A stretch of DNA of 64,000 nt from an uncultured Thermoplasmata archaeon (GCA_964644565.1 CAZXWO010000003.1:4613-68612); one strand, 5' to 3'; shown: positions 5,430 to 64,000, counted from the first letter of the stretch. Notes: a model not told the origin generated them from the sequence alone. A program made the numbers and translations.

Positions 5430-5471
5430 GGCGTCTGGCCACCCCAATACGTTGCGGGGAAGCCGTCCCGC

Positions 5472-9023: not shown

Positions 9024-9032
9024 CCCCCGACC

Positions 9033-10345: not shown

Positions 10346-10362
10346 GGAATGTCTCCCCCGAC

Positions 10363-10830
10363 TCAGAGGTCCCGGGAGGTCCAGACGCCCTGGCCCCTCC
10401 CCTCGTCGACGCCGATCTCCACCCTCTTGACGTTCTCCGGGAACTGGACCCTCTCGAGGAGGCGCCGTATGACCCACTCCGAGATCTCCTCGGCCGACGT
10501 CACGGAGACGTCCAGCAGGACGCAGTCCGACCGGGGGAACTCGTAGGACTTCCCGCCGGCGGAGTACCTCACGGACTCGCCGCTGGGGACCACCGAAGGG
10601 TCGTTCCCGGGGACGAGGACCTTGTGGTCCAGCTCCGCTGCCACGTTCCTCAGGAACTCCTTGACGCTGATGAAGTCCATTATGACGCCGTCCCTGCCGA
10701 TCTCCCCTTCTATGACCGCGTTTATCGCATAATCGTGGCCGTGCAGCCGGCCGCACTTCGAGTGCCCTGCGATCAGGTGGGTCGCGGAGAACGTTATCTT
10801 CGAGACCCAGCCGTTTATCTCCAGCCTCAT
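10363..10830 (-). CDS. queD: 6-carboxy-5,6,7,8-tetrahydropterin synthase
   Basis: FSATHLIAGHSKCGRLHGHDY is a PTPS/QueD signature. Confidence 0.9.
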   Translation of the reverse strand: MRLEINGWVSKITFSATHLIAGHSKCGRLHGHDYAINAVIEGEIGRDGVIMDFISVKEFLRNVAAELDHKVLVPGNDPSVVPSGESVRYSAGGKSYEFPRSDCVLLDVSVTSAEEISEWVIRRLLERVQFPENVKRVEIGVDEGRGQGVWTSRDL

Positions 10831-10865
10831 CGGATTGGGATAGCTCGGGAGGCCTTAAAATAGTT

Positions 10866-11633: not shown

Positions 11634-11647
11634 CGGGACAGCACCGC

Positions 11648-12658: not shown

Positions 12659-12724
12659 CTCCCCTGCAGACGGCCGACCGCGGCCCTAGCGGGAGGGACA
12701 TGGGGGTGTACAGTAGCCCTTCGT

Positions 12725-12730
12725 AAAAAA
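12725..12730 (-). terminator. oligo-T tract (T6 on minus strand) about 30 nt downstream of rpl10e
   Basis: The plus strand reads AAAAAA at 12725-12730. Archaeal terminators are oligo-T runs. The tract also lies in the dph2 upstream spacer. Confidence 0.35.
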
Positions 12731-12760
12731 CATTGTGCGGTGCGGGCCCGACGGGGAGGC

Positions 12761-13288
12761 TCACTCGGCGGGTGCGACGACCTTCTTCGGGGCCCTCTCG
12801 ACGTCGATGTAGCACGGGGTAGGGAGCTTTATCGCGGCCCTCTTCAGAGCCTGCTTGGCCGTGGCGATGTGCGCGGCGGTGGTCTCCAGGGTGATGAGCC
12901 CCTGGTCGGGCTTGATCCTTGCCGCGGTGCCGATGGGCTTGCCGAACGCGGCCCTCATCCCCTCGGAGATACGGTCAGCGCCTGCGCCCGTCGCGATCTT
13001 GTTCTCGCGGAGGACGTTGTGCGGATACACCCGGATCTTCAGGTGGTACCCCGTGGTGCCGATCTTCTTCGCGAGCAGCCTGTTGGCCGAGATACGGGCG
13101 GCCTCGAGCGCTATGTGCCTGATCTGGCACTGCTCGACCGCCTTGAGCGTCATGCGGACGGGGTAGTCCCCCTTGACCCCGTGCTCGAACTGGGTGATCC
13201 TGTTGGCGGGAACCCCTCCCATGTACTCCCTGCGGCAGTAGGCCTGCCCCTTGATCTCCCTGTACATGCTTCCGGGTTTCCGAGTCAT
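12761..13288 (-). CDS. rpl10e: 50S ribosomal protein L10e (uL16)
   Basis: MTRKPGSMYREIKGQAYCRREYMGGVP is a canonical L10e N-terminus. Confidence 0.95.
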   Translation of the reverse strand: MTRKPGSMYREIKGQAYCRREYMGGVPANRITQFEHGVKGDYPVRMTLKAVEQCQIRHIALEAARISANRLLAKKIGTTGYHLKIRVYPHNVLRENKIATGAGADRISEGMRAAFGKPIGTAARIKPDQGLITLETTAAHIATAKQALKRAAIKLPTPCYIDVERAPKKVVAPAE

Positions 13289-13454
13289 ATGACCACAACT
13301 GGTGGTAGGCTGATACCAGGTCTGCGGGATAAAGGTAGTCGTATATAAAACTCACTGACCCGGGGAAGTTGGCGGTGTGGGGCGCCCGGGAGCCCCTGGC
13401 ACCGCTGGCCGGAGGGCAGGAGTATATCTATGCCCAAGCCCTTGACAACCGCGC

Positions 13455-13775
13455 ATGGCCCGCAGGCACGTGAGCAAGAGAGGGGCGAAGGACATCGCCG
13501 AGGAGAGGGTCGACATACTCTTCGGCGAGGCCGCGGCGGAGGCCCGCAGGGGCGACGACGCCAGGGCCAGGAGGTACGTCGGGCTCGCCCTCAGGATGAG
13601 CGAGAGGCACAAGGTGAAGGCCAGCCACAAGAGGACCTACTGCCCAGAGTGCCACACGTACTTCGTCCCACCGAGGAACGTCCGGGTGAGGACGGGCTCC
13701 GGGAGGGTGTCGATGACCTGCCTGTCGTGCGGGCACGTGCTCAGGTATCCCATGAAGGCCAAGGGGAGGGTGTGA
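13455..13775 (+). CDS. rnp4: RNase P protein component 4 (Rpp21/Rnp4)
   Basis: Has a helical N-terminal half (IAEERVDILFGEA...RRYVGLALRMS) and a zinc ribbon (CPECHTYF...CLSCGH). Confidence 0.85.
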   Translation: MARRHVSKRGAKDIAEERVDILFGEAAAEARRGDDARARRYVGLALRMSERHKVKASHKRTYCPECHTYFVPPRNVRVRTGSGRVSMTCLSCGHVLRYPMKAKGRV

Positions 13776-13779
13776 CGCG

Positions 13780-14037
13780 ATGGACAAGAAGAGGAAGGCG
13801 CAGCTGAAGGGGGCCGCCCAGCACATCGACGCCACGGTGTACGTCGGGAAGGACGGCGTCACCGCGGAGGTCGTGGGCGAGGTCGTGAAGCAGCTGAAGC
13901 GGAAGCGGCTCGTTAAGGTGAGGCTCCTCCCGTCGATGGAGCAGGAGAGGCACGAGGCGGCGGAGAAGCTTGCATCGGCGGCGGCCGCGGTCCTCGTTGA
14001 GGTGCGCGGCAGGACCGCGGTGCTGGCGAGGGACTGA
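13780..14037 (+). CDS. YhbY/CRM-domain RNA-binding protein
   Basis: LKGAAQHIDATVYVGKDGVTAEVVGEVVKQLKRKRLVKVRL matches the YhbY pattern. Confidence 0.8.
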   Translation: MDKKRKAQLKGAAQHIDATVYVGKDGVTAEVVGEVVKQLKRKRLVKVRLLPSMEQERHEAAEKLASAAAAVLVEVRGRTAVLARD

Positions 14038-14100
14038 GCCCCCTGCTCAGGGTTTATATACGGACATGCACGTTGACAAACGGTCCGAAGGTGTCCAGGC

Positions 14101-15363
14101 ATGCTAGACGCGAGGTACATCCGGGATAACGAGGCGGCCGTGAGGCAGGCCCTGAAGGACAGGAGGTCCGACGAGTCCGTCCTCGACCGGTTCGTGGAGC
14201 TCGACTCCAGGTGGCGCTCCCTCACGGAGGAGGGTAACGCCCTCAGGCGGCACAGGAACGAGGTCTCGGAGCAGGTGCCGAAGCTGCCCAAGGAGGAGAA
14301 GCAGGCCAAGATCACCGAGATGAAGGCCACCGCCGAGAGGATCAGGGTGATCGAGGCGGAGGTCAAGAAGATAGAGGGCGAGAGGGACGACCTCCTGCTC
14401 AACATACCGAACATGCCGGACCCGAGCGTGCCCGTCGGCGACCTCGACGCCGGCGATGTGTTCCTCCGCACATGGGGGACGAAGAGGGACTTCGACTTCA
14501 AGCCGCTCCCCCACTGGGAGATCGGGGAGAAGCTGGACATCCTCGACTTCGACCGCGGGGTCAAGGTCACCGGGACGGGGTTCTACGTCCTCAAGGGGGA
14601 CGGGGCGAGGCTCGAGAGGGCGCTCATCAACTTCATGCTCGACCTGCACCACGCGCAGGGCTACAGGGAGGTGTTCCCCCCGGCCATCGTCAACCGCAAG
14701 AGCTGCATCGGCACGGGCCAGCTGCCCAAGATGCAGGACGACATGTACTGGGTGGAGAGGGACGACCTCTGGCTCAACCCGACGGCGGAGGTGCCCGTCA
14801 CCAACCTGTACTCGGACGAGATATTCGACATGAGACAGCTCCCGGTCTACCACACGGCGTACCTCCCCTCGTTCAGGCGCGAGGCGGGGAAGCACATAGA
14901 GACCAAGGGGATTGCCAGGGTGCACCAGTTCAACAAGGTGGAGCTGGTCAAGTTCGTCGTGCCTGAGACCTCGCAGCAGGAGCTGGAGACGCTCCTCGCC
15001 GACGCTGAGGCCGTGACAAAGGCGCTCGAGCTCCCCTACAGGATCAGGCTCCTCTGCACCGGGAGCGTGGGGTTCCACTCGTCCAAGACCTACGACATCG
15101 AGGCCTATGCGCCGGGCATGGACCAGTGGCTCGAGGTCTCGTCGTGCAGCGACTTCAAGGAGTTCCAGGCCCGGAGGGCGATGATCAAGTTCAGGCGGGA
15201 GCCGCACCTGAAGAGCGAGTTCGTCCACACCCTGAACGGGTCGGGCATAGCGCTGCCCAGGACGATGGCGGCCGTGCTCGAGAACTACCAGAACAAGGAC
15301 GGGACCGTGACGGTGCCCGAGGTTCTCAGGCCCTATATGAAGGGGACCGAGCTCATAGGCTGA
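14101..15363 (+). CDS. serS: seryl-tRNA synthetase
   Basis: Has the N-terminal coiled coil MLDARYIRDNEAAV, the class II motifs FRREAG and GSGIALPRTMAAVLENYQ. Confidence 0.95.
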   Translation: MLDARYIRDNEAAVRQALKDRRSDESVLDRFVELDSRWRSLTEEGNALRRHRNEVSEQVPKLPKEEKQAKITEMKATAERIRVIEAEVKKIEGERDDLLLNIPNMPDPSVPVGDLDAGDVFLRTWGTKRDFDFKPLPHWEIGEKLDILDFDRGVKVTGTGFYVLKGDGARLERALINFMLDLHHAQGYREVFPPAIVNRKSCIGTGQLPKMQDDMYWVERDDLWLNPTAEVPVTNLYSDEIFDMRQLPVYHTAYLPSFRREAGKHIETKGIARVHQFNKVELVKFVVPETSQQELETLLADAEAVTKALELPYRIRLLCTGSVGFHSSKTYDIEAYAPGMDQWLEVSSCSDFKEFQARRAMIKFRREPHLKSEFVHTLNGSGIALPRTMAAVLENYQNKDGTVTVPEVLRPYMKGTELIG

Positions 15364-15718
15364 GCCAGCGGCCCTGGTAGGTCGGGCCGCCGCGGGGCCG
15401 TCTTCGCACGGTTGAGAATCACCGCTGATTGCCAGACGTCCCCCTTTTATACCCTCGCGGACAGGATATCGACTCAGTAACAAGGGAAAGGGTCCGCGAT
15501 GAAGAAGGACACGCGCTTCGCGCTACTGGTCGGGAAGGCCTTCCTCAAGGAGATTGAGGACGGCCACAGGGATACCGCGATCGCCTTCGGACGGGCGTTC
15601 CTGCTGGCGTTGGGCCGACAAGGCCCTGACGCAGGCGACGACTTCGATGCGCTGAACGGCAGGGGCCACTCGCACGCCATGGCGATGGCGCACAACTGAC
15701 CGGGCAAGGCCACATTTC

Positions 15719-53641: not shown

Positions 53642-54298
53642 ATGAGTCCGAGGAAGGTCTACATGAACGAGCTCGCAGAGCTTGACGAACTTGTGACGGT
53701 CATGGCCAGGAAGACCAGTGAGGCGATCGAACTGGCCGTGAGGTCCTTTGAGAAGCGCGACCTGGAGATGGTAGAGCGCGTCGAAAGGCTCGACAAGGAG
53801 CTGTACGAACTGAACATAGACATCGAGAAGAGGTGCCTGGAAATCATCGCACTTCAGTCCCCGGTCGCCAAGGACCTCAGGACCATCGGGACGTATCTCA
53901 AGGTCATCACCGATTTCGACAGGATAGGCAGATACGCCTGGGACATCGCAGAGGTCACCGCGCACTCCATCGAGACCGCCCATTTCAAACCCCTCGTCAG
54001 CATCCCGCACATGGCGCAGATGGCTGAGGAGATGGTCGACCTGTCGGTCAAGGCATTCCTCGAGAGGGACACTGCGCCCACCGAGAAGGTCTTCGAACTC
54101 GAGGACAGGGTCGACTCGCTCTATGACGAGATCTTCAGGGAGGTCATCACATACATGATGGAGGACTCGAAGAAGATCACGCCTGGCATCAACTACATGC
54201 TGGTCGCCAGGTATCTTGAACGAATCGGGGACCACGCCTGCAACATCTCGGAGCGGGTGATCTACATGGTGACCGGGGAGAGGGTCGTCAAGGAGTAG
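53642..54298 (+). CDS. phoU: phosphate transport system regulator PhoU
   Basis: Has two PhoU repeats with ExxxD motifs, ending in RYLERIGDHACNISERV. Confidence 0.9.
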   Translation: MSPRKVYMNELAELDELVTVMARKTSEAIELAVRSFEKRDLEMVERVERLDKELYELNIDIEKRCLEIIALQSPVAKDLRTIGTYLKVITDFDRIGRYAWDIAEVTAHSIETAHFKPLVSIPHMAQMAEEMVDLSVKAFLERDTAPTEKVFELEDRVDSLYDEIFREVITYMMEDSKKITPGINYMLVARYLERIGDHACNISERVIYMVTGERVVKE

Positions 54299-54418
54299 GC
54301 CCGCCGTTGAGGCCGGCGGCTGTGCGTCCCAGCCCAGCGTCCGCTAGTGGTCAGAGGCTGAACCGAGCCTTATGACGGAAGCCGATTGCCGTCCCTGTAC
54401 TGGCCTTCCCGTCCCCGG

Positions 54419-55834
54419 TCAAGGACCGCGTATCTTCCTCGCCGCGTTCTCAGCGGCCTTGATCAACGGGTAGGCGGTCGGAGGGGCGGTCAGCAGCGGG
54501 TGGGTCCCGATCTGGGAACTCAGTATCGAATCGACGGTCATCCTGTTCTGGATCATGAACCCGATCAGGTTGACCAGCTCACCCGCGCTGGCCCCCGATA
54601 GGACCTCGCCGCCCAGGACGGCGCCCGAGTCCCTCGCGACGACCAGTTTTATCAGCTGCCTGTGGACTCCCGGCAGCGTGCTCGGGTGCTTGTCGACGCC
54701 GTCGAAGACGCCCGTCACGATCTCGAACCCCTCACGCTTGGCGACAGACTCCGTCAGTCCGGCCGAGCCGAACCCATGGTCCCCTATCGCCGTGGAGAAT
54801 ATCGCGATGGTCCCTCTGAACGTCTTGACGACCGAGAGCCCGAAGAGGTTCATGCCGGCGATCCTGGCCTCGGTGGACGCAGTCGAAGCGAGCATCAGTC
54901 CGGAGACCTTCCTAGTCGAGAAGTCCCGCTTCTCCGCACAGTCTCCCACAGCGAATATGTTCGGGTCTTCTGTCCGCATGTACTCGTCGACGCGGATGAA
55001 GCCCATCTCGTTGAGTGGTATCTTCGAGAGATCGGCGACGGAGGTGTTGGGTTTGTACCCCATCGCGAGTATGACCGCCTCGGCATCCAATCTCTCGCCG
55101 TTCTGCAGCAGCACACCCTCGACACGCTCCTTCCCGACGATCTCCTTGACACCTATGCCAGTCCTGAGCTTCACTCCCCTCTCGACCACGATCTTCTCGA
55201 TCTCAGTCGCGAGGTCCTTGTCGAATGCCAGGCCGAGTATGTGAGGCAGGATCTCGACTATCGTCACTTCCTTGCCGGCCTTGTTGAGTTCGTCGGCCAG
55301 CTCGACGCCGATGAAGCCCCCGCCCACGACGACGACCTTCCTCAGCTTGTCGAGCGAGGCGAACAGCATGTCGAGGTACTCCTTCTCCTTCTTTATCACG
55401 TGGACGTTCTTGAGCTCCGCGCCCTTGAGCCACTTTGGCACCACGGGATATGACCCCAGCGCCAGCACGAGGCGGTCATAGCCGAGTTTCGATCCGTCCA
55501 CCATCTCGCACACCCGGGCCCCCCTGTCGATGGACTTCAGCTCGCCCGTGAGAAGCCCGATGCCAGCCTTCGTCAGCCTGTCGTTGGGGAGCAGGTTCTT
55601 CTCGACCCCGTTCAGGGTCCCGAAGATGTACGGGATGCCACAGGGGACCATCGAATGGTTCTCGTTGCTGACAATCACGAACTCCTTGTCCGGGAAGCTG
55701 GCCTTGCCCGTCATCGCCGCGAGGCTGCCAGCCGGTCCGCCGCCTACAACTAGGACGTCTGTCTTCTTCAAGGTATCACCGGGCAGGCCCTGGCCCAGGA
55801 GGACACAACAATCCTCCCCTGAGGGCGCTGCCAT
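54419..55834 (-). CDS. pyridine nucleotide-disulfide oxidoreductase (NADH oxidase / CoA-disulfide reductase family)
   Basis: VLVVGGGPAGS is the FAD motif, VPCGIPY the redox Cys, VVVVGGGFIGVE the NAD motif and FAVGDC is also present. The N-terminal start is uncertain. Confidence 0.85.
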   Translation of the reverse strand: MAAPSGEDCCVLLGQGLPGDTLKKTDVLVVGGGPAGSLAAMTGKASFPDKEFVIVSNENHSMVPCGIPYIFGTLNGVEKNLLPNDRLTKAGIGLLTGELKSIDRGARVCEMVDGSKLGYDRLVLALGSYPVVPKWLKGAELKNVHVIKKEKEYLDMLFASLDKLRKVVVVGGGFIGVELADELNKAGKEVTIVEILPHILGLAFDKDLATEIEKIVVERGVKLRTGIGVKEIVGKERVEGVLLQNGERLDAEAVILAMGYKPNTSVADLSKIPLNEMGFIRVDEYMRTEDPNIFAVGDCAEKRDFSTRKVSGLMLASTASTEARIAGMNLFGLSVVKTFRGTIAIFSTAIGDHGFGSAGLTESVAKREGFEIVTGVFDGVDKHPSTLPGVHRQLIKLVVARDSGAVLGGEVLSGASAGELVNLIGFMIQNRMTVDSILSSQIGTHPLLTAPPTAYPLIKAAENAARKIRGP

Positions 55835-56135
55835 CGGTTCGATGAGGATTTCAATCTTAAACTATTCGGCTGACATGTAATCCGTGAGCGGCCTCCGCGG
55901 CAGTGCTGGCGACCTGCATATCCACGGGGAGGGGCGCAGGGGTACGTCTCACCTCATGAGGCTGGGACAATAGCAGGCGTGAGCAGCATAACCGCGACGA
56001 ATCGAACTGACGATTCTGAGGCAGCGAGAACGAGACGCCAGGCCGGGCGGATCTGCAGTCGGGTTGGAAAATCGTGAAAAGGGTTTACGAATCAATACGA
56101 ATTGAACGAATAATTCATGAAAATGAACTGAACGA

Positions 56136-56321
56136 TCAGAACGTGTCTCTTCGCGGGGGTCTGTGCTTCTGGAAGCAGGTCTGGCAGTATACAGGTCTTC
56201 CCTCTGTAGGCTTGAAGGGTACCTCTGACTCTGCGCCGCAGTCGGAGCACTTTATCTTGTGCATCTCCCTGGGGCCAGAGTCGTATCTGCGGCTGCCGCC
56301 TCCGTACGAGCCGTAACTCAT
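56136..56321 (-). CDS. CxxC-x17-CxxC zinc-finger domain protein with Gly/Ser/Tyr/Arg-rich N-terminus
   Basis: The sequence is CSDC-(GAESEVPFKPTEGRPVY, exactly 17 residues)-CQTC. The start is taken at MSYGSYGG (56321), and the track ORF extends to 56366. Confidence 0.72.
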   Translation of the reverse strand: MSYGSYGGGSRRYDSGPREMHKIKCSDCGAESEVPFKPTEGRPVYCQTCFQKHRPPRRDTF

Positions 56322-56583
56322 TGCTTTATCTCTCCTTTCTTGCCTGTGAGCGCAATCTGCACTCACTGCGATTGAGTCTTAGCAAGTTCAACTACAAGTA
56401 ATGATGCCTGCCACATAGATATCAGGAGGCGAGAACGATGGCGCTGATGTCCACGCGGTCCAAAGAGCGCTCACGTCCTATCCTTCTTCGAACGCTCGAA
56501 TCAAGCTGGAGAAGGACCGCGCACGGGGGCTCTTCCATCCCGTGCCGGAGAGAGCCACCGAAAGCAGATCCTGTCATCCATAG

Positions 56584-56909
56584 AGACTGTGCGCGTATGC
56601 ACGGCTGGTGCCGACCGTGAGCCAGTCGACATCATCCATCAAGTATGGATGCATCAGCAAGGACGGTTCCGCGTACCTCAGGTGGGTCCTCACGGAGTCC
56701 GTCCACGTCCACACGCGATACGAACCAGTATCACAACTCTCGCGATCCATGCGAAGGTCGCGAAGCGGCGAGGAAGGCGCGTTGCCACCGTTGCGGCCTC
56801 GAGGAAGCTCCTCCGGGTCATCTACTGGATGCTCCCGCCTCGGTTCCGTGGCGTCCCCGCGCACAATTCGATGCATCTCTCCGAAGTTCCTAACGCCGAT
56901 GACTATTAA
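56584..56909 (+). pseudogene. IS110-family transposase C-terminal remnant (5'-truncated and frameshifted)
   Basis: One frame reads AYARLVPTVSQSTSSIKYGCISKDGSAYLRWVLTESVHVHTRY. Another frame continues with HAKVAKRRGRRVATVAASRKLLRVIYWML. A stop lies at 56581 and there is no N-terminal DEDD domain. Confidence 0.6.
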
Positions 56910-56944
56910 TGACCGCGGTCCGATTTCCCTAACGGTAATCGGAG

Positions 56945-57862
56945 ATGTGGTCACCGGACGACCTCGACATCCGGATCATCAAACTGATGGCTTCCCCGCA
57001 CTCGTTTCAGTGGGACGTTCGAATTTCCTATGCGAACGTGGCCAAAGATCTAGCCATAGACGAGGAGACGGTCCGGAACCGGCTGCGGCGAATGAGCGAG
57101 GCAGGGTTCCTGCAGGGGTGGCAGCTCATCCTCAACCCGATTCTGCTTGGTCGGGAGGCGGCCATCGTGGAGCTGGAAGTCAACGGTCCGGAAACGAAGG
57201 CCGAGGTGATTCCGCGACTCGGCTCCCTGGAGGGCGTGACGCTCATCAATGACTTCTATGGCAGTGAACTCGCAGTCCACCTCTTGTACGAGAGTGAAGA
57301 CGCCCTGACGAGACAGGTCCAACTGATTGCCTCCTTATGCCGTTGCCCGACCCCGGTTTGGTGGAGACTCGGCTTCCCTTCTTGCGAGCTGACCCCCACG
57401 AAGGCGGACTGGAGAATCGTCCAAGCACTGCGGATGAACGCGAGAGGTAGTCTGTCGGACGTCGCCCACAGCCTGCAACTCTCGCCTCGGACCGTCAAGA
57501 GGCGCATGAAGAGAATGGTGGAAGGAAACGCATTCTACCTCGACCCTCTGCTGAACGTGGGGATGGTCGGCGGTGTGCGATGCCGGTTCTGGATCGTCTG
57601 CGATGCGGGCAAGAAGCAGGCAGTCGACGCGAAGGTCATGTCTACACTCAAGAGGATTATCTCGACCCACACGGCGCCGCAGGAATACTCACTTTTCGTC
57701 GTCCACTGCGCAAATGCCTCGGAGCTACAAGAGATTTCGCTATGGCTGAGAAAGCAGGACGGTGTCAAGGAAGTCCGGTCGAATATCGATGTGGAGCATG
57801 TACACGTTCAAGGATGGATTGCCGGGGAGATTGAGAAACGGCTGTCGACGCCGGCGATCTAG
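56945..57862 (+). CDS. tandem Lrp/AsnC-type transcription regulator (two HTH + two RAM-like modules)
   Basis: The two HTH modules are DIRIIKLM...ANVAKDLAIDEETVRNRLRRMSEAGFL and DWRIVQALRMNARGSLSDVAHSLQLSPRTVKRRMKRMVEGNAF. Confidence 0.75.
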   Translation: MWSPDDLDIRIIKLMASPHSFQWDVRISYANVAKDLAIDEETVRNRLRRMSEAGFLQGWQLILNPILLGREAAIVELEVNGPETKAEVIPRLGSLEGVTLINDFYGSELAVHLLYESEDALTRQVQLIASLCRCPTPVWWRLGFPSCELTPTKADWRIVQALRMNARGSLSDVAHSLQLSPRTVKRRMKRMVEGNAFYLDPLLNVGMVGGVRCRFWIVCDAGKKQAVDAKVMSTLKRIISTHTAPQEYSLFVVHCANASELQEISLWLRKQDGVKEVRSNIDVEHVHVQGWIAGEIEKRLSTPAI

Positions 57863-58218
57863 CGTGCACATCGATTCTACAGGAAGCCCGCCGGACAACC
57901 TTTGACAGGGAGTTTGTGTATCAATGACAAGGTAGGTCGGAACAACCTCACGCAATCACATCAAATCCGAATCCAGCTCAATCCGAGAGAAGATGAAGAG
58001 GAGAGAAGCAAGAAAGGAGTCTGGCCCGTTTGCTGGTTCCCAATATTGATGGTTCTTGGTGCAGACAAAGTGAGCCCGCAGTGGTAGCTTCATGGAATAG
58101 ACTTATCTCCTGCAGAAGGGATGACCGGACGAAGGAATTGAAGTAAACGAGATGCTCGAGGCAGAAGACACGACAGTTGAAAGAGCATAATCGTTGGAGA
58201 AGAGGAAACGTCAGAGAG

Positions 58219-58428
58219 ATGATCGATATGAGCGACAGGCAAAAGATAGTCTCTATGCTCAGCATCGTTGACGGAGAAAGAGAGAGCATAGAAACGATAG
58301 TTGAGACAATAGAGAAATTCTTCGAAGACCTCCATCTTGAGATTGAGGATTGGAAGATCTCTATGGAAGATTTCAGCGAAGGCACCCGTGTCTTCGTCCG
58401 GTTTCAGATAATCGTGAAGAAGCGGTGA
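58219..58428 (+). CDS. small Trp-centred acidic protein, paralog 1 (amphi-Trp-domain-like)
   Basis: Paralogous to 61225..61416 (EIEDWKISMEDFSEGTRV vs EMEQWKFSIDDTKEGLRV). GGAGAAGAGGA lies upstream. Start options are 58177 (TTG), 58219 and 58228. Confidence 0.55.
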   Translation: MIDMSDRQKIVSMLSIVDGERESIETIVETIEKFFEDLHLEIEDWKISMEDFSEGTRVFVRFQIIVKKR

Positions 58429-59243
58429 TTTTCTTGACCCCTGAAGCAAGGAAGAAAAGAGGTAAAGAACCCCAAGAAGAAGAGGCAGCCACACCTGATC
58501 ATATTCGCCTCAACCCCGAGGATTGGGAAGACCCAGCCGGGCGGAGAATCATTGAATGCCACAAGAACAGTACCCATGAGACCGATGCGAAGAACGAGTC
58601 CGATCTCGATGCATTTCAGCAGGAGTGGAATACTAAGAGAGGCGGTCAAACCGCTAGTGAATATCACAAACAGGGCGCACCCTATATGGAACCTCAGTCA
58701 GTAGAGGAAGGCCGTGAACCCCGAACGAAGGTCGCTAGCAGTGACAGTGATAGGCCACGCGACGTCCACGTAGCGACCGACTCGCATCGCAGTCAATCGT
58801 TGACCAGACAGCCATTCTTGAAGCGGGTCTTGGATATCTCCACTATCGAAGTGATGGCGTTCACTGTCTTCCGAGCGATGTTCGGGAAGGGTGTCCGGGT
58901 ACCATTGAAGATCGAAGGCTCCATGGACATGGATATCGTGGTGAAGGACACCGATGTCGTCATCAATACCAACAATGTCACATTCCAGCCGCCGAAACTG
59001 CAGGTCTGGCATTTCATCTTTGCCTACAAAGGCAAGCCTGTGCTGGAGTACGGTCGCGGTATCGAACGTGTCAAGGTTCACTACTACCACGCATTCGTTA
59101 TGCTTGTTGCGATGTGGTGGGGCGGCAAGAAGAAGAGGAGAGCCGAGAAGAAGGCCGACGAAGCAAGAGATGTGGAATTGACCCGCTACGCTGCAGGTAA
59201 CGAAAGGCCAGATGAAGAGAATGGTACAGGTCGAGACCAGTGA
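58425..59243 (+). CDS. hypothetical protein (charged N-terminal half, beta-rich C-terminal half, short hydrophobic helix and basic tail)
   Basis: The frame is open from 58350. A GTG at 58425 overlaps the upstream stop (GTGA), and its own TGA overlaps the kinase GTG (GTGA). An alternative ATG is at 58686. No family was recognised. Confidence 0.45.
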   Translation: MIFLTPEARKKRGKEPQEEEAATPDHIRLNPEDWEDPAGRRIIECHKNSTHETDAKNESDLDAFQQEWNTKRGGQTASEYHKQGAPYMEPQSVEEGREPRTKVASSDSDRPRDVHVATDSHRSQSLTRQPFLKRVLDISTIEVMAFTVFRAMFGKGVRVPLKIEGSMDMDIVVKDTDVVINTNNVTFQPPKLQVWHFIFAYKGKPVLEYGRGIERVKVHYYHAFVMLVAMWWGGKKKRRAEKKADEARDVELTRYAAGNERPDEENGTGRDQ

Positions 59244-60079
59244 TTGCCGCACCGACAGTAATTCCAGGTATCGAGACCCGCCGTGCATTCTTCCGCAAAG
59301 CCCTCCATTGTATCCGCCAGATAATGGCTGAGGAATACGGAATGAAGGATGTCTCGATCCGGCCAACCGATGCGAATGCCGCCCGACTTTCCATACCCAT
59401 AACGATCTCAGGTCAGGACAGGAATGGCGAAGAGGTCCGTTATTTCGGCAAGATCATCGGTAGCAGCGACAACTTGTCCGCCCGCTCATTCCAGTTCTTC
59501 AAGAACGTCTATCTAGAGATCAACGCCCAATACCCCATCTTCGAGACCTATCAGACGTCAGAGGACATGGCCCGGGACCAGTTCACGATGATGAAGGCAA
59601 TTCACAACTGCGGAATACCGACACCCCACCCCTATGGATATCATTGGATAAGTGGTAGCCTGTGGTTGATAGCGATGGAATACCTCGATGCAAAACCTAT
59701 CTCTGCATTCAAGGAGTTGGAGACTGATCAGATCGACACGGTCTTCCAATATCTGAAGAAACTACATCATGAGAAGGTATATCATGGAGACCTCAAACCG
59801 GATAATATCATGATTGGGAAGGAGATCTACATCCTCGACGTTGGGCACTTGCGAAAGAGCGCCTCCGCCGCCAGGAAACAGGCCTACGATCTCGCCTGCT
59901 TGCTGTGCTCATTCCTGGAGTATCAGAAGGTCGAGGAAATCGTTCGGATAGCTCAGCAACACTATTCCCCCAAGAATCTCCAAGCCGCCAGTGCATACAT
60001 CGAGCTTGTTCAGATGCGACCAGACATCCATTTCAGTGACGAGACCAAGAAGAAGTTGCTCGTTCACTTGAGTGGCTGA
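59240..60079 (+). CDS. atypical protein kinase-fold protein (RIO/Bud32/Kdo-kinase-like, no activation loop)
   Basis: The catalytic loop YHGDLKPDNIMI is at 59783-59806 for HGDLKPDN. The metal-binding motif is ILDVG (DVG for DFG), and a candidate beta3 Lys is in RYFGKIIG. Confidence 0.7.
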   Translation: MIAAPTVIPGIETRRAFFRKALHCIRQIMAEEYGMKDVSIRPTDANAARLSIPITISGQDRNGEEVRYFGKIIGSSDNLSARSFQFFKNVYLEINAQYPIFETYQTSEDMARDQFTMMKAIHNCGIPTPHPYGYHWISGSLWLIAMEYLDAKPISAFKELETDQIDTVFQYLKKLHHEKVYHGDLKPDNIMIGKEIYILDVGHLRKSASAARKQAYDLACLLCSFLEYQKVEEIVRIAQQHYSPKNLQAASAYIELVQMRPDIHFSDETKKKLLVHLSG

Positions 60080-60226
60080 TCACACCCCTGCACGATCATG
60101 TCCCCTCACGGGGCGATTCCATTGAACGATCATCTGCTGCTGTACAGTGATTGAACCCGCCTTTCGACGACCTGCGCAACGACCGGCCAACAGACGAGCC
60201 TCTGGGCAAATTCATCAGAGGCCGGG

Positions 60227-60778
60227 TCACTGTTGCTTTGGCTGCTGTGAGTAAGAAAGTCGCCCAAGGCGCTGACTGAGCAGCTCCTGCAGATTGTTGG
60301 GGTGGGAAATCGTCTCGATCTTGAGCATGTCTTCACCGGTGTCAATCTCGAGGGTTCCGAAATGTAGCACGCGCTCGAGGAGGTTCTGACGAAGGTCGAC
60401 ACTCTTGAACTGGGTATAGGGGACCATCTGTGTTCTCTTGCTCAGGATTCCGTCCTTGCGGACGACCTTGTTGTCTGTGATCAAATACAGCGTAGTCAAG
60501 CGCTTCAGCTCGCCACCGATTAAGCACAAGAGAGCGATGAAGAGGAAGAATAGCGCGACAACTACGTCAAGGGAAAGTCCCATTACGGAGTTCTCCACAT
60601 CGATGTAGTCCTTGATCGGGCTGAGAAGCAAGATGCCCACCGCCAGGGCCAAGGAAATGAACATCAGCAGGTAGTACTTGAACCCGATTAGCCGCGTGGG
60701 CCGAATCCTGTCCAGAGTCTTCTCATCGCCATGGACTGGTTCTTGGACCGTTGCGGGTGTCGAGGTCGGAGAGCTCAT
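60227..60778 (-). CDS. bacterial-type PH (bPH_2/YdbS-like) domain membrane protein
   Basis: Two TM helices are followed by LYLITDNKVVRKDGILSKRTQMVPYTQFKSVDLRQNLLERVLHFGTLEIDTG. Confidence 0.75.
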   Translation of the reverse strand: MSSPTSTPATVQEPVHGDEKTLDRIRPTRLIGFKYYLLMFISLALAVGILLLSPIKDYIDVENSVMGLSLDVVVALFFLFIALLCLIGGELKRLTTLYLITDNKVVRKDGILSKRTQMVPYTQFKSVDLRQNLLERVLHFGTLEIDTGEDMLKIETISHPNNLQELLSQRLGRLSYSQQPKQQ

Positions 60779-61171
60779 GGATATGATACATCACCCAGAC
60801 TGTCATAAAGGTTCTCCTACGCTGCTCCGCCGATTCGGTCGCCATGGCAACAGCCCAATCCTGCGCATTACATCAACCTCACAGAACACACTCGTCAAAC
60901 CTCTGGATCCGGTCGATTCGAAATGTAGGTTCCGCGGTCGCGGCGACTATCGCCATTACGCTCACGCGCCAGTTCATTGTCACCTTCCCCACCTCAATTG
61001 CACCTAGAACCTATGGGCTTCGCTTCAGTTTCCTAGCGCATGCGAGGCTCGAAATGGCACCGTGACATTCCGAGACTATCAGACAAATCGTACGTCGCGA
61101 GACCTGGAAGCATCATCAGGAAGTCTAGAGCATCTTCAAGGAGGACAAATCGATGAGATGAAGTGAACACA

Positions 61172-61196
61172 CCGTCTGCAATGTGTGCAGACACGG
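61172..61196 (-). terminator. hairpin (GTCTGCA-n5-TGCAGAC, extended by CC/GG) about 30 nt downstream of the small paralog 2 gene
   Basis: The sequence ccgtctgca atgtg tgcagacacgg spans 61172-61196. A T-rich stretch follows on the minus strand. Confidence 0.3.
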
Positions 61197-61224
61197 AAAG
61201 CCAGAGAGTGCAAACCGGGCGTTC

Positions 61225-61416
61225 TCACTTTCTCTTCGGCGTATTCTTCGGTGTATGTTTAAAGAGAGACACAGCGTGAAGTTCCACACGTAGGCCCTCT
61301 TTCGTGTCATCAATGGAAAACTTCCACTGCTCCATCTCCGCGTTCATATCCTTGAACATCTTCTTCAGCTCTACGCTCTTCGCCCTGAGTCTGTTTGCCA
61401 TACTTACGTCTGCCAT
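61225..61416 (-). CDS. small Trp-centred protein, paralog 2 (amphi-Trp-domain-like)
   Basis: The sequence is MADVSMANRLRAKSVELKKMFKDMNAEMEQWKFSIDDTKEGLRVELHAVSLFKH, with a basic tail. It aligns with 58219..58428. Confidence 0.55.
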   Translation of the reverse strand: MADVSMANRLRAKSVELKKMFKDMNAEMEQWKFSIDDTKEGLRVELHAVSLFKHTPKNTPKRK

Positions 61417-61689
61417 AGTAGAATCCTCTGCCGGCTAAAGACTGAAGGGATTCTTCATTCTTAAGGATTTTGAGCATTGGAGTGAGGGATACGATTGAAT
61501 CTTCACCTGAATTGCAGCGTTTGTGCATATGATTTCCACCGCCCTCCCCAAGACAGTTGAAATAAGACCTCGTCGCTATTCGGAACACAAAATCGAACGA
61601 TGAAAAGGAATCACGGGCACGATTGGATGCTATGCAATTTCAAGGAGCGTTCATCGTTGGTCAAGAAGAACCACTTCGGGGGGAATTGA

Positions 61690-62184
61690 ATGGAGAGAGA
61701 CACCGAATTGGACGAGGAGGAAATTGACCGCATAGCAGGCCGAGTTGTCAAAGAGATTGAGGGAGCAAGCTCCAAGGACATGTCAAAGGCGACTTACGCA
61801 AGGAAGATACTGATTCTGACCGACCTCCATTACACGACAAGGCTACTCGATGAGGTGGCCACTGCTCCGTCTGAAGAAAGAGCTTTGATTGAGAAGAAAG
61901 CGGTGATCAAAGCACTTCTGCTTTCAACATGGATACAGAGACTGTATTTCATTATCAGAACTCTATATATGTCAATCATCGGTACGGTAATCACTGTTGC
62001 CTACATCATGTATTTCGGCAAGATAGGCACCTTCTTGGGACTGGTACTCGGAGTCATAACATTCGTGATATCAATGATGGTCACACGATTGTTCGATGCG
62101 CATATGGCCCGTGCCACACAGTACATCGTTCAGAAATTGAGCAAACACAAGAAGCTCAGGGATTTCATCATGAATCACTTCTGA
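61690..62184 (+). CDS. hypothetical membrane protein (acidic N-terminus, about 3 hydrophobic helices)
   Basis: It is the only sizeable ORF in the region. The hydrophobic segments are LLLSTWIQRLYFIIRTLYMSIIGTVITVAYIMYF and FLGLVLGVITFVISMMV. Confidence 0.5.
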   Translation: MERDTELDEEEIDRIAGRVVKEIEGASSKDMSKATYARKILILTDLHYTTRLLDEVATAPSEERALIEKKAVIKALLLSTWIQRLYFIIRTLYMSIIGTVITVAYIMYFGKIGTFLGLVLGVITFVISMMVTRLFDAHMARATQYIVQKLSKHKKLRDFIMNHF

Positions 62185-62403
62185 GTCAACTGCAAGAAGG
62201 CTCGAACCGACTCTGAACGACGGTATTGGTTTCTTCTTCGACGAGCACACCAACATCGGCAGTCGGTTCAAGCGCGCTCTGCCGGTCCTCTTGAGGCTTG
62301 AGTGCCCAGCGTGAATCGGGGGAGGGGTGAGGACGCCTTCATTCTTCACTGGTGAAATGCGGTCGCTGGAGGTTCTGTGGTACAGAGTCCGCGCATATCT
62401 TCT

Positions 62404-62440
62404 TGAATCCCGCCCCCCCCCGATTGCTACGGGGGATTCA
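62404..62440. repeat. hairpin TGAATCCC-n21-GGGATTCA enclosing a C9 homopolymer (62413-62421)
   Basis: Read directly from the sequence. It lies in the 290-nt spacer between two membrane-protein genes. Confidence 0.6.
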
Positions 62441-62475
62441 GTTAATATGGCCGAAACAGATGCAGGCTAGCTTTC

Positions 62476-63171
62476 ATGGCATCTAAGATTCAGGAGCCAA
62501 TTCAGAAACTTGAGCGGAAGTTCGGCAGACTTCGGCTCACACTTGCAATCCTCTTGATCGGGTTCGTAATCGCCGGGACAGTCGAGTCGTACAACGCCAT
62601 CAACCACACCTATCCATTGCCTTTTGCGTCCTCCGTATTCATCATCGGCCCTTTCGTTACACTGACCGGGCTTGCCATACTCTGGATCGGCCGCTCTGAG
62701 TGGGATGAACACACCAGTCGACGATTCCGACTCGCTGAAAGGGTGTTTGGCCTCAGCCTCATCGCCATTGCACTGGCCGGCCTTACGGTGCTCTACTACG
62801 GTTTACATCCCGCCACAACGATTCCTTCGTTCGTGGAATGGGAATTCGGGGCTGCGATTGTGGCCATACTGGTCCTAAACTTTGTGATCTATGTTCTAGT
62901 TGCCTTTGATCTGACGGAGGTGTTCGGCAAAGTCCTTCTCCTCATCGCTCTCGCTTGGGCCTGTGTCGTTTCCATCTTCCTCGGACAAGCTCTTGCTGAG
63001 CAGCTCGAGACGATTGTCCTAGCCATCCGGGAGCACACTTTCAATTTCAGACCAGTCAGCTCCTCGGTTTCCGGCATAGAGTCCTATTTCGTGGTGGCTT
63101 ACATTCTGCTGACGATTGTATACCTGGACGCGTACCGTAGGTCAGGTGCGAGAGCTACAAAGGCATCCTAG
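62476..63171 (+). CDS. hypothetical integral membrane protein (about 6 TM)
   Basis: Hydrophobic helices occur regularly throughout the 231 aa, and there is no competing ORF. Confidence 0.55.
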   Translation: MASKIQEPIQKLERKFGRLRLTLAILLIGFVIAGTVESYNAINHTYPLPFASSVFIIGPFVTLTGLAILWIGRSEWDEHTSRRFRLAERVFGLSLIAIALAGLTVLYYGLHPATTIPSFVEWEFGAAIVAILVLNFVIYVLVAFDLTEVFGKVLLLIALAWACVVSIFLGQALAEQLETIVLAIREHTFNFRPVSSSVSGIESYFVVAYILLTIVYLDAYRRSGARATKAS

Positions 63172-63216
63172 AACACATTTCAGTGAATGTTCCCGACAGG
63201 TGTGAATAGGGTGCGG

Positions 63217-63286
63217 GGGCCCGGATATTGACCCGGAATCTACCGGCGATTGAAGCTGCCAGCTACACCTACCGGTACGTAACTGG
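63217..63286. repeat. direct repeat R1, copy A (23-nt identical core GGGCCCGGATATTGACCCGGAAT plus about 47 nt of imperfect similarity)
   Basis: The core at 63217-63239 is identical to 63713-63735. The extension is roughly three-quarters identical by eye. Confidence 0.75.
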
Positions 63287-63334
63287 CGGTCCTCCTCACC
63301 TCTTTTCCTGCTGGTAGACAATTGGCTCGTCCTC

Positions 63335-63357
63335 CTCCCCTATGGTCTTTTCCGAGG
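63335..63357. repeat. direct repeat R2, copy A (CTCCCCTATGGTCTTTTCCGAGG)
   Basis: Matches 63692-63714 (CTCCCCCATGGTCTTTTCCGCGG) with 2 mismatches. Confidence 0.7.
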
Positions 63358-63429
63358 CTCAGGACTAGATTGGAGCACGTCGCTCTGTTTATATCCGCCC
63401 GCCCCCCTTCTGTTGATTGATGTGAGCGC

Positions 63430-63687
63430 ATGATTGAGAAGAGGCGGAAGAAGCCAAATACTGAATCCGAGGAGCTCGTCAATGATGAGGATACGAAGCC
63501 CGAGGACATCTACGATGATGATTCCAGGCAGGAGATGCTCGAGGATGACAAGATCACTGCTTCAGAGGAGGGGTTCATGCGCGGCTGGGACGGCACCGTG
63601 GAAGGTGGAAAGAAGCATAAGAAGGATAGCGACCACAAGGACATGGCATCTGTCGAGCTGGTCAAGGAACAGTACAAAGAGGATTAG
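63430..63687 (+). CDS. small highly acidic/lysine-rich hypothetical protein
   Basis: An 85-aa ORF bracketed by the R1/R2 repeats. An antisense ORF (63562..63861) competes with it, so coding status is uncertain. Confidence 0.35.
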   Translation: MIEKRRKKPNTESEELVNDEDTKPEDIYDDDSRQEMLEDDKITASEEGFMRGWDGTVEGGKKHKKDSDHKDMASVELVKEQYKED

Positions 63688-63691
63688 GGGT

Positions 63692-63714
63692 CTCCCCCAT
63701 GGTCTTTTCCGCGG
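63692..63714. repeat. direct repeat R2, copy B
   Basis: See copy A. This copy directly abuts and overlaps R1 copy B. Confidence 0.7.
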
Positions 63715-63782
63715 GCCCGGATATTGACCCGGAATATACCCCCAATTAAAGCTCCAGCCAATAATTACCGGTAAAGAATGGT
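63713..63782. repeat. direct repeat R1, copy B
   Basis: See copy A. Confidence 0.75.
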
Positions 63783-64000
63783 TACCCGAGAACGGCCAGA
63801 AAACCGGCCGGATTCTGTCCTGAATGACATCAGAAAAGATTATGAATGCCCTCCGCTTCACGGAAGACCGCAGGTGATGAAGCTCACCTTCAACTGCCCG
63901 GTGCGGGGCTGATAGCTTCTACCAACGCGTCGCACCATGTCATGATGTGGATATGACGAATTGAAGGTGAGAGGATGATAGACGCTCCAATCCTGCTTGT

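What the first reader, a model, noticed from the sequence alone, without database searches (positions are those of the whole stretch)
55835..64000. Abrupt low-GC, low-density accessory island beginning after the oxidoreductase gene and running off the window
Seen in the sequence: spot counts of single 60-nt lines give 27/60 (58201) and 19/60 (61921) G+C in this region, versus 36/60 (9061) and 40/60 (20401) in the core. Intergenic spacers jump from tens of nt to about 250-450 nt. An IS110 transposase remnant lies near the left edge. Apart from a tandem Lrp regulator, the genes are small, membrane-associated or unassignable. No integrase, tRNA target, capsid or replication gene is visible, and the right boundary is not in the window. 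Inference: horizontally acquired DNA, either an integrated-element remnant or a genomic island, carrying a possibly coherent signalling or conflict module (see the separate findings).
Basis: partly seen in the sequence, partly recalled or inferred. Interest (0 to 1): 0.6.

Follow-up and report, generated by a model that had tools for sequence, protein, structure and literature searches.

The report
Foreign gene stack behind tRNA-Leu
The low-GC stretch is a real patch of about 11 kb of foreign DNA that an uncultured Thermoplasmata archaeon has accumulated behind a leucine tRNA gene 2.7 kb past the window; part of it consists of small gene cassettes bounded by copies of the tRNA's tail, related archaea have the same hotspot, and four of their genomes or contigs also carry the likely inserting enzyme there (truncated in one).

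Summary
From 55,835 onward GC falls from 63.8% to 53%. These are the lowest-GC and most tetranucleotide-deviant windows of the whole 1.78-Mb MAG. GC3 drops from 0.84-0.91 to 0.57-0.76.

On the parent contig the island ends at extrapolated window position 66,663, at the 3' end of tRNA-Leu(CAA). Three 100-120-nt direct repeats lie at about 63.21, 63.71 and 65.62 kb. Each is a conserved arm plus a copy of the tRNA's last ~16-22 nt. They cut the tRNA-proximal 3.5 kb into three units of one or two genes:
- an 85-aa ORF;
- a fluoride riboswitch with a CPA2 antiporter and Usp;
- a membrane protein.

The distal block (55.8-63.2 kb) holds the kinase operon, membrane proteins, a tandem Lrp, an IS110 stump and a zinc finger. 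It has no detectable outer att.

The same tRNA carries such repeat arrays in at least five related Thermoplasmata MAGs. A Xer-like tyrosine integrase sits directly 3' of this tRNA in four genomes or contigs (truncated in one). In two of them it heads 30-41-kb elements that end in the same arm. One relative holds a cassette duplicated exactly core to core at 99.6% identity.

G000 has no such integrase. This is an integrase-less accretion island, a new variant of a known kind.

The parts
53642..54298 (+). phoU, last gene of the pst operon; the conserved far frame of the variable region
   Evidence: In G001 a degenerate repeat abuts phoU directly. pst has the same orientation relative to tRNA-Leu in G004. 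GC3 is 0.85.
54419..55834 (-). Pyridine-nucleotide-disulphide oxidoreductase with native composition, probably relocated here
   Evidence: PF07992, E 1e-60. GC3 is 0.84. Within the genus it occurs only in G001 and G005, at other loci: between TBP and ABC genes in G001, and 45 kb from tRNA-Leu in G005.
56136..56366 (-). CxxC-x17-CxxC zinc-finger mini-protein
   Evidence: TIGR04272 70.9 bits and PF23477. GC3 is 0.64.
56589..56909 (+). Frameshifted C-terminal stump of an IS110-family transposase
   Evidence: PF02371 Transposase_20, E 9e-4, 20 bits against a cut-off of 21.3, for 56608-56800. No N-terminal part is present.
56945..57862 (+). Tandem Lrp/AsnC-type regulator
   Evidence: Two HTH_AsnC stretches. 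It has no homologue at E<=1e-15 in 20 relatives. GC3 is 0.74.
58177..60079 (+). Three-gene operon: small protein, protein of about 300 aa, and atypical RIO/Bud32-like kinase
   Evidence: PF01163 and PF00069 on the kinase. The same 68-aa/303-308-aa/279-aa order occurs on other Thermoplasmatota contigs at 73-76% identity. It is absent from 30 relatives.
60227..60778 (-). bPH_2-domain membrane protein
   Evidence: PF03703, E 4e-12.
61225..61416 (-). 63-aa paralogue of the small operon protein
   Evidence: Shared motif, read from the translations. A small minus-strand ORF sits at the same place after the kinase in L069 and L071.
61690..63171 (+). Two membrane proteins without family (164 aa at 61690-62184, 231 aa at 62476-63171)
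   Evidence: ORFs. They have no significant Pfam family.
63207..63324 (-). Repeat r1: conserved arm plus a copy of the tRNA-Leu 3' end (1 mismatch in 16)
   Evidence: the repeat finder D1/D2; nhmmer E 4e-20; core match.
63430..63687 (+). Unit 2: acidic 85-aa ORF between r1 and r2
   Evidence: ORF; no family.
63707..63822 (-). Repeat r2, the most degenerate core
   Evidence: nhmmer E 2e-16.
63864..63928 (+). Fluoride riboswitch 47 nt upstream of the antiporter gene
   Evidence: RF01734, 48.2 bits against a gathering score of 34, E 2e-11. It is conserved in G001.
63975..64000 (+). Start of unit 3, a CPA2-type cation/proton antiporter that runs off the window. The rest of the island lies beyond the window; coordinates are extrapolated, window = C3 - 4612. 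Antiporter to 65087; Usp 65093-65536 (+); repeat r3 65620-65717 (-); unit 4 membrane protein 65796-66635 (+); tRNA-Leu(CAA) 66664-66749 (-), the integration target and right border.
   Evidence: Antiporter: PF00999, E 2e-40, TIGR00932, with an 81%-identical orthologue next to phoU in G001. Usp: PF00582, E 2e-31. r3: its last 19 nt are identical to the tRNA end and trailer, nhmmer E 4e-26, and its arm is 89% identical to the distal arm of the integrase-bearing element of G006. mp279: only two distant hits in 40 relatives. tRNA: ARAGORN, Rfam 56.8 bits, and MetAP linkage conserved in all 7 relatives' loci examined.

Best explanation
The island is a mosaic accretion island at the 3' end of tRNA-Leu(CAA).

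How it works: foreign DNA circles carry an att site, a conserved arm of about 70-100 nt followed by a mimic of the tRNA's last ~16-25 nt. A Xer-like tyrosine integrase recombines this site with the tRNA's 3' end, or with a copy of it already in the array. Each insertion regenerates the tRNA and leaves an arm-plus-core copy at the far end of the insert. Successive insertions therefore stack up, separated by direct repeats.

In this genome the three tRNA-proximal units are small and integrase-less. They are a membrane protein; a fluoride riboswitch with antiporter and Usp; and an 85-aa ORF. I read them as non-autonomous cassettes that a helper element's integrase moves in trans.

The distal block (55.8-63.2 kb) holds the kinase operon, membrane proteins, Lrp, the IS110 stump and the zinc finger. 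It is older or separately acquired foreign DNA whose outer att has been lost, probably along with the IS110-associated rearrangement that also brought the oxidoreductase next to phoU.

Since no cognate integrase exists in the assembly, the array is at present stranded.

Shown: composition, borders, repeats, the hotspot in relatives, the integrase at the same tRNA elsewhere, and core-to-core cassette duplication in a relative.
Inferred: that this integrase acts on these sites, trans-mobilisation, and the history of the distal block.
For: The DNA is foreign.
- It has the lowest GC and the most deviant tetranucleotide use in the MAG, with a GC3 shift.
- The kinase, Lrp and mp279 are absent from 20-40 relatives.

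The tRNA is the target.
- tRNA-Leu(CAA) sits exactly where GC recovers.
- r1-r3 lie in the same orientation as the tRNA's 3' end.
- They occur nowhere else in the assembly.

The hotspot is shared.
- Arrays of 2-8 such repeats follow the same MetAP-linked tRNA-Leu in G001, G003, G004, G005 and G016.
- About 30 further stretches in Thermoplasmata MAGs carry the repeat.
- Median spacing is 1.77 kb over 51 intervals.

The repeats are recombination sites.
- In G004 a two-gene cassette occurs at array positions 2 and 8.
- The copies are 99.6% identical (2130/2139) exactly from core to core.
- Identity is 72% in the upstream arm and 24% downstream.

There is a candidate enzyme.
- An orf215-plus-integrase pair lies directly 3' of tRNA-Leu(CAA) in G006, G033 (74% identity), L076 (88%) and, truncated, G005.
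- The G006 and G033 elements run about 30 and 41 kb to a distal arm-plus-core copy.
- That arm is 89% identical to r3.
- A member at 66% identity sits behind tRNA-Ser, as expected of a tRNA-targeting integrase family.

G001 has the same riboswitch-antiporter unit as its last unit, with its repeat abutting phoU.
Against: - No repeat or tRNA fragment marks the left end of the island. Site-specific origin of the 55.8-63.2 kb block is therefore not shown.
- No integrase of the family, nor a remnant of one, exists in G000. Only a XerA-like gene at 29% identity and two other PF00589 hits were found, on contigs C76, C52 and C61. The MAG is only 81% complete.
- 17 of 20 array-bearing genomes lack the integrase. 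Its link to the small units therefore rests on a shared site and position, not on co-occurrence.
- The first unit of G005 contains a truncated integrase. Decay by deletion therefore also produces small units.
- The repeats show no conserved secondary structure beyond the T-arm-like hairpin.
- Assembly integrity could not be checked with reads.
Confidence: 0.75

Rival explanations
1. Only stumps: each small unit is the deletion remnant of a once-large, integrase-bearing element of the 30-41 kb type. Cassettes as such are never mobile, and the array is a graveyard.
For: Full-size elements with the same distal arm exist at this tRNA. The tRNA-proximal unit of G005 is 2.2 kb and keeps orf215 plus an integrase cut at about residue 215, a decay intermediate. 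Most arrays have no integrase.
Against: Unit sizes are tight: median 1.77 kb, and 78% are at most 2.5 kb. Apart from that one G005 unit, no integrase fragment lies in the small units examined. Random deletion does not predict that the arm side is always kept. The G004 cassette is duplicated exactly core to core at 99.6% identity with unrelated flanks, which requires movement of a small unit.
Confidence: 0.25
2. The distal block (55.8-63.2 kb) did not arrive by the tRNA-site mechanism at all. It came by IS110-mediated or homologous recombination and merely landed in an already permissive, variable locus.
For: There is no outer att. An IS110 stump lies inside the block. A native-composition oxidoreductase has been moved in beside it. 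The kinase module sits in non-array contexts elsewhere, near tRNA-Asp in L069 and beside the CCA-adding enzyme in L071.
Against: The block lies between r1 and the phoU frame, exactly where the oldest insert of an accretion array should be. In G001 the corresponding position holds a degenerate terminal repeat, so loss of such a repeat is plausible.
Confidence: 0.35
3. Assembly or binning chimera: the low-GC piece belongs to a co-occurring lower-GC relative and was joined at the conserved tRNA-Leu or repeat sequences.
For: Members of the same genus, G004 to G006, have about 50% GC around this locus. The bin holds a second MetAP copy at 83% identity on a 1.8-kb contig. Reads could not be consulted.
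Against: High-GC relatives G003 and G001 also have low-GC DNA behind this tRNA. G001 independently links the antiporter unit to phoU. The antiporter diverges from G001's copy (81% aa) about as much as the core genes do (83-88%). No repeat exists at the left junction to cause a false join. None of the 30 relatives encodes the kinase.
Confidence: 0.07
4. Vertically inherited native region whose low GC simply reflects small membrane genes and long spacers.
For: The antiporter-Usp unit is shared with G001 at core-like divergence.
Against: Third codon positions, the sites least constrained by protein sequence, drop by 0.1-0.3 in GC. The genes are absent from relatives. G011 has core genes directly after phoU and no island.
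Confidence: 0.03

Closest known systems
Genomic islands in tRNA/tmRNA genes made by tyrosine integrases, including tandem arrays (Islander; PMC4383910); archaeal example PYG1 of Pyrococcus yayanosii (PMC5126054, as described in PMC9897764)
   Same: An intact tRNA stands at one end and displaced 3' tDNA fragments occur as direct repeats. The integration site is in the T-stem-to-3'-end region. The composition is foreign. Full-size integrase-bearing relatives sit at the same tRNA.
   Different: Islander requires an integrase and a fragment per island, and it found only 4 tandems of three or more in 2168 genomes. Here there are up to 8-9 cores per array, units are mostly 1-2.4 kb, and most have no integrase. 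The repeat also includes a conserved non-tRNA arm of 70-100 nt.
Tycheposon-built islands of Prochlorococcus (bioRxiv 10.1101/2020.12.28.424599)
   Same: [quoted passage not shown] Partial tRNAs and degenerate remnants are scattered through the island. Cargo consists of nutrient-uptake and stress genes. Here the cargo includes pst, Amt, MntP and a fluoride-regulated antiporter.
   Different: The host is an archaeon. The integrase is a different, Xer-like one with an orf215 partner. The single-gene units are regular, with long conserved arms. No replication module has been seen.
CIMEs (cis-mobilizable elements) and site-specific accretion in Streptococcus ICE/IME families (review PMC5704250; also PMC7563491)
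   Same: att-flanked units lack recombination genes and lie in tandem with, or at the site of, related integrase-bearing elements. They are expected to move only with a helper's integrase.
   Different: This is a bacterial, conjugation-linked concept and CIMEs are usually single. Here long arrays are conserved as a locus across a lineage, and trans-mobilisation is untested.
Integrons and integrase-less attC clusters (CALINs), including archaeal integrons (PMC9668308)
   Same: These are arrays of mostly one-gene cassettes, each with its own recombination site. The cassette content is strain-specific. Many arrays lack a neighbouring integrase.
   Different: There is no IntI: TIGR02249 scores 54 bits against a cut-off of 265. 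There is no attC-type folded site. The docking site is a tRNA 3' end. Genes occur in both orientations in G004. When present, the integrase rides on a 30-41 kb element rather than a fixed platform.
Genomic islands integrated at the tmRNA gene ssrA of Dehalococcoides (PMC3146451, abstract seen; details from my own knowledge)
   Same: Adaptive operons are mobilised site-specifically into one small-RNA gene. Several islands are stacked there and separated by short direct repeats of the gene's 3' end.
   Different: The host is a bacterium, the target is tmRNA and the islands are larger.

Membership tests
tDNA genomic island (Islander-type) | Intact tRNA gene at one end of the island | tested here: met
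   tRNA-Leu(CAA) at extrapolated window 66664-66749. GC recovers beyond it.
tDNA genomic island (Islander-type) | Direct-repeat fragment of the tRNA 3' end at the far end of each inserted element | tested here: met
   r1, r2 and r3 lie in the orientation of the tRNA 3' end, and r3 shares 19 identical nt with it. This holds for the three proximal units only.
tDNA genomic island (Islander-type) | tRNA fragment at the outermost (left) border of the whole island | tested here: not met
   A profile search of the whole assembly and a BLAST of all 29 tRNAs against 54.0-66.7 kb found none. The phoU-oxidoreductase spacer has none either.
tDNA genomic island (Islander-type) | Integrase gene inside the island | tested here: not met
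   There is no PF00589 hit on contig C3, no tblastn hit of the G006 integrase in the island, and no Pfam hit on the island ORFs.
CIME-like non-autonomous unit | att sites of the same family as those of an integrase-bearing element using the same target | tested here: met
   The r3 arm plus core is 89% identical to the distal junction of the 30-kb integrase-bearing element of G006 at the same tRNA.
CIME-like non-autonomous unit | Excision and integration when a helper integrase is supplied in trans | not testable with these tools
   There is only indirect support: a core-to-core duplicate of a cassette in G004.
Integron / CALIN | IntI-type integrase | tested here: not met
   The associated integrase scores 54 bits on TIGR02249 (cut-off 265). 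Its best match is archaeal XerA, at 162 bits against a cut-off of 220.
Integron / CALIN | attC-type imperfect palindromic site that folds | tested here: not met
   RNAalifold on 9 repeats finds only the 7-bp T-arm-like hairpin and no compensatory changes.
Fluoride riboswitch (RF01734) | Covariance-model score above Rfam's gathering threshold, upstream of a transporter gene | tested here: met
   48.2 bits against 34, E 2e-11, over the full model 1-64, 47 nt upstream of the CPA2 gene.
IS110 family | Transposase_20 C-terminal domain and DEDD N-terminal domain | tested here: inconclusive
   Only a C-terminal fragment is present, at 20 bits against a cut-off of 21.3. There is no N-terminal domain.

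The most novel reading that the evidence does not exclude
Soil and sediment Thermoplasmata run a gene-capture platform that works like an integron but is built from different parts. The 3' end of tRNA-Leu(CAA) serves as the docking site. One- or two-gene cassettes each carry an arm-plus-core site of about 100 nt. A Xer-like integrase, with an orf215 partner, is delivered only transiently by 30-41 kb integrative elements and shuffles cassettes in trans. Related integrases serve other tRNAs. The G000 island would be one such array, caught without its helper.
Probability: 0.35. Interest if true: 0.8.

Novelty: new variant of a known kind. Interest (0 to 1): 0.6.

Why it matters
It turns a vague 'low-GC island' into a mapped structure with a target, junctions and a testable candidate enzyme. 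Arrays of small integrase-less cassettes at a tRNA gene appear across a whole lineage of uncultured archaea. Their cargo is adaptive and includes phosphate, ammonium, manganese and fluoride-responsive transport genes as well as toxin-antitoxin-like pairs. My literature searches found no description of such arrays in Thermoplasmata. A candidate integrase sits at the same tRNA, and the arm at the far end of its element matches the cassette arms. This makes the question 'who moves the cassettes' experimentally addressable. It also matters for MAG curation, because such hotspots are places where composition-based binning and assembly are most likely to fail.

Tried and rejected
1. I looked for a fourth repeat or any tRNA fragment at the left border and found none. 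The searches were an nhmmer profile of 26 repeats over the whole assembly, a blastn-short of all 29 tRNAs against the island and inspection of the phoU-oxidoreductase spacer. A 14-nt match to tRNA-Cys at 56047-56060 was judged chance.
2. I looked for the integrase or a remnant of it in G000 (tblastn; PF00589). Only XerA-like and unrelated hits turned up, on other small contigs with no tRNA beside them.
3. A provirus or plasmid reading found no support. There are no PHROG hallmark genes, and the repeat pattern is absent from IMG/VR contigs.
4. A defence-island reading found no support either. PADLOC gives only generic kinase and HTH matches.
5. I tested whether the repeats are structured RNA or attC-like sites, or full tRNA pseudogenes. 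There is no Rfam tRNA hit on r1-r3 and no conserved structure beyond the T-arm-like hairpin.
6. Simple synteny between the oxidoreductase and tRNA-Leu in relatives does not exist. The frame had to be taken from phoU instead.
Cross-genome comparisons therefore used the alignment and search tools.

Full report
**Coordinates.** The window is C3:4613-68612 of a 1.78-Mb assembly of 94 contigs, 64.4% GC and 81% estimated completeness. I extended the view with L001 (C3:60072-80071); window coordinate = L001 coordinate + 55,459. Positions above 64,000 are extrapolated window coordinates.

**1. The observation.**
- GC is 0.638 up to 55,834 and 0.528 from there to the window end.
- Genome-wide, 5-kb windows average 0.646 GC (sd 0.019). 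The ten lowest all lie here, with a minimum of 0.514.
- In tetranucleotide distance, windows of this stretch rank 1, 3, 4 and 5 of 560, with z up to 7.8.
- GC3 separates native from foreign sharply.
  - It is 0.84-0.91 for pstCAB, phoU, the oxidoreductase, MetAP and sucCD.
  - It is 0.57-0.76 for every gene from the zinc finger (56,136) to the last gene before the tRNA.
- Spacers are 147-578 nt and the coding fraction is about 71%.
- The window holds no tRNA, and no island ORF matches an integrase, capsid or replication family.
- The IS110 remnant is only weakly supported, at 20 bits on PF02371.

**2. The right border.** GC stays low for another 2.7 kb and recovers to 0.62 after about 66.7 kb. 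A tRNA-Leu(CAA) gene sits exactly there, at 66,664-66,749 on the minus strand, with its 3' end facing the island. Beyond it lie MetAP, Sua5 and sucCD, all of native composition.

**3. Junction repeats.**
- Three direct repeats lie in the island at about 63,207-63,324, 63,707-63,822 and 65,620-65,717.
- All are in the orientation of the tRNA's 3' end.
- Each has a conserved arm followed by a copy of the tRNA's terminal ATCCGGGCCCTCGCAC. r3 shares 19 identical nt with the tRNA end and trailer.
- The T-loop-equivalent part differs from the tRNA (GGGTCAATATCC against GGTTCAAATCC).
- A profile of 26 such repeats finds only these three copies plus the tRNA end in the whole assembly.
- The repeats delimit three units, read from the tRNA outward.
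  - A 279-aa membrane protein.
  - A unit of fluoride riboswitch, CPA2 antiporter and Usp. The riboswitch scores 48.2 bits on RF01734 (gathering score 34) and lies 47 nt upstream of the antiporter gene.
  - An acidic 85-aa ORF.
- Left of r1 lies a block with no further repeat. It holds two membrane proteins, a 63-aa ORF, a bPH protein, the 68-aa/300-aa/kinase operon, a tandem Lrp, the IS110 stump and a CxxC-x17-CxxC protein.

**4. Relatives.**
- Record titles of matching contigs show that the relatives are uncultured Thermoplasmata MAGs from soils and sediments.
- The MetAP-tRNA-Leu(CAA) linkage holds in all seven relatives' loci examined.
- In G001, G003, G004, G005 and G016 the tRNA is followed by 2-8 repeats of the same family, in two arm subtypes (alignment A1).
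- A pattern that matches the repeat but not the tRNA hits 36 stretches in the species-representative collection. About 30 of them are in Thermoplasmata or Thermoplasmatota MAGs.
- Over 51 inter-core intervals the median spacing is 1.77 kb (IQR 1.2-2.4).
- Cargo in G004 includes the following.
  - A NosD-like protein.
  - A DUF6036 plus HVO_2833_C pair, present twice.
  - Amt.
  - The whole pst operon, in a 7.5-kb interval.
  - MntP.
  - An AAA_14/DUF4143 ATPase.
- High-GC G003 also has a low-GC patch right after its tRNA.
- Island genes are strain-specific.
  - The kinase has no hit in 30 relatives, the Lrp none in 20, and mp279 only two distant hits in 40.
  - The antiporter occurs in G013 and as fragments in G001 and G016.

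**5. The frame and the left border.**
- In G001 the antiporter gene, riboswitch and a degenerate repeat are followed within 70 nt by the end of phoU.
- pst has the same orientation relative to the tRNA in G000 and G004.
- The variable region is therefore framed by tRNA-Leu and phoU. In G000 everything from about 54,300 to 66,663 is variable.
- The oxidoreductase has native GC3. In G001 it lies between TBP and ABC-transporter genes, which sit on other contigs in G000. In G005 it lies 45 kb from the tRNA. I take it as a native gene relocated here, perhaps with the IS110 event; this is an inference.
- In G011 phoU is followed directly by core genes with no island.

**6. The repeats are recombination junctions.** In G004 the DUF6036/HVO_2833_C unit occurs at array positions 2 and 8. 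The two copies are 99.6% identical (2130/2139) exactly from the upstream core to the downstream core. The upstream arms are 72% identical and the downstream flanks 24%. A random segmental duplication would not end at both cores. Excision and re-insertion of a cargo-arm-core circle would.

**7. A candidate enzyme.**
- PF00589 hits lie next to the tRNA in G006 and G005.
- In G006 a 215-aa ORF and a 325-aa tyrosine recombinase start 6 nt after the tRNA.
- G005 has the same pair, with the integrase cut at about residue 215.
- G033 (OY970070) has a 74%-identical integrase about 630 nt after its tRNA-Leu(CAA).
- The metagenomic contig L076 has an 88%-identical integrase in the order Sua5, MetAP, tRNA-Leu(CAA), orf201, integrase.
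- The first distal arm-plus-core copy lies about 30 kb away in G006 and about 41 kb away in G033. The G006 arm is 89% identical to r3 of G000.
- A 66%-identical member with the same partner ORF sits behind tRNA-Ser(TGA).
- The enzyme is Xer-like, not an integron integrase.
- The family is large, with 1452 proteins at E<=1e-40.
- G000 encodes no member, and 17 of 20 array-bearing genomes lack it.

**8. The distal block.** The kinase has 190 homologues in metagenomes. The 68-aa/303-308-aa/279-aa operon, followed by a small minus-strand ORF and a protein of about 170 aa, recurs at 73-76% identity on other Thermoplasmatota contigs. There too it lies in lower-GC patches, one of them close to a tRNA-Asp. 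It is thus a recurrent accessory module and shows no defence or viral signature.

**9. Interpretation.** The data fit serial site-specific insertion at the tRNA-Leu 3' end, as in Islander-type tandem islands and Prochlorococcus tycheposon islands. The special feature is that most units are one- or two-gene, integrase-less and bounded by a long conserved arm plus core. I commit to trans-mobilised non-autonomous cassettes, CIME-like and integron-like in behaviour. The tight size distribution and the G004 duplicate point that way, but decay by deletion also happens (G005). How the distal block arrived remains open.

**Caveats.**
- This is a MAG and carries a second MetAP copy at 83% identity on a 1.8-kb contig.
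- Earlier notes of this scan describe the same kind of array in other Thermoplasmata genomes. I saw them only after reaching this reading and did not use them as evidence. Several say the arrays never carry a recombinase, which qualify.

Noticed in passing
window 63864-63928 (+): A fluoride riboswitch (RF01734, 48.2 bits) lies upstream of a CPA2-family antiporter and a universal stress protein, which together form one att-bounded unit. The same riboswitch-antiporter arrangement is conserved in G001 next to phoU.
   Followed up: partly
G000 contig C91:159-971 (outside the window): A second MetAP gene, 83% identical to the one beside tRNA-Leu, lies on a 1.8-kb contig. This shows that the bin contains fragments of a second related strain or species.
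   Followed up: partly
L015 (G004:C1:137500-157499) 8030-15530: In G004 the whole pst operon with Amt and an AbrB-PhoU gene lies in a 7.5-kb interval between two arm-plus-core repeats of the tRNA-Leu array. More cassettes lie beyond it. G005 has an 8.7-kb interval at the equivalent place.
   Followed up: partly
L016 (G006:C8) 1720-13853; L076 3704-5978: The integrase-bearing elements at tRNA-Leu carry defence-like cargo. G006 has a radical-SAM-like protein, a TcmP-like protein and an IS21 pair. L076 and L077 have a QueC-like protein and a SMODS-domain protein.
   Followed up: no
L069 4000-15443: On another high-GC (65-69%) Thermoplasmatota contig the homologous kinase operon again sits in a low-GC patch of about 10 kb, which ends near a tRNA-Asp. 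No tRNA-Leu-type core is present.
   Followed up: partly
window 54299-54418 and G000 contigs C6, C26, C69: Synteny breaks at phoU. G011 has PPS, TFB, GAPDH and EndA right after phoU, but in G000 these genes lie mid-contig on C6. The G001 neighbours of the oxidoreductase (TBP and an ABC-2 transporter) lie on C69 and C26 in G000. Together these point to rearrangements around the array.
   Followed up: partly
window 56047-56060: A 14-nt exact match to the anticodon-arm region of tRNA-Cys(GCA) lies in the spacer between the oxidoreductase and the zinc-finger gene (E 0.003 in a small search). It is probably chance.
   Followed up: no
L080 1723-3382: A 66%-identical member of the integrase family, with the same upstream partner ORF, sits directly 3' of tRNA-Ser(TGA). 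Subfamilies therefore appear to be specialised for different tRNAs.
   Followed up: no
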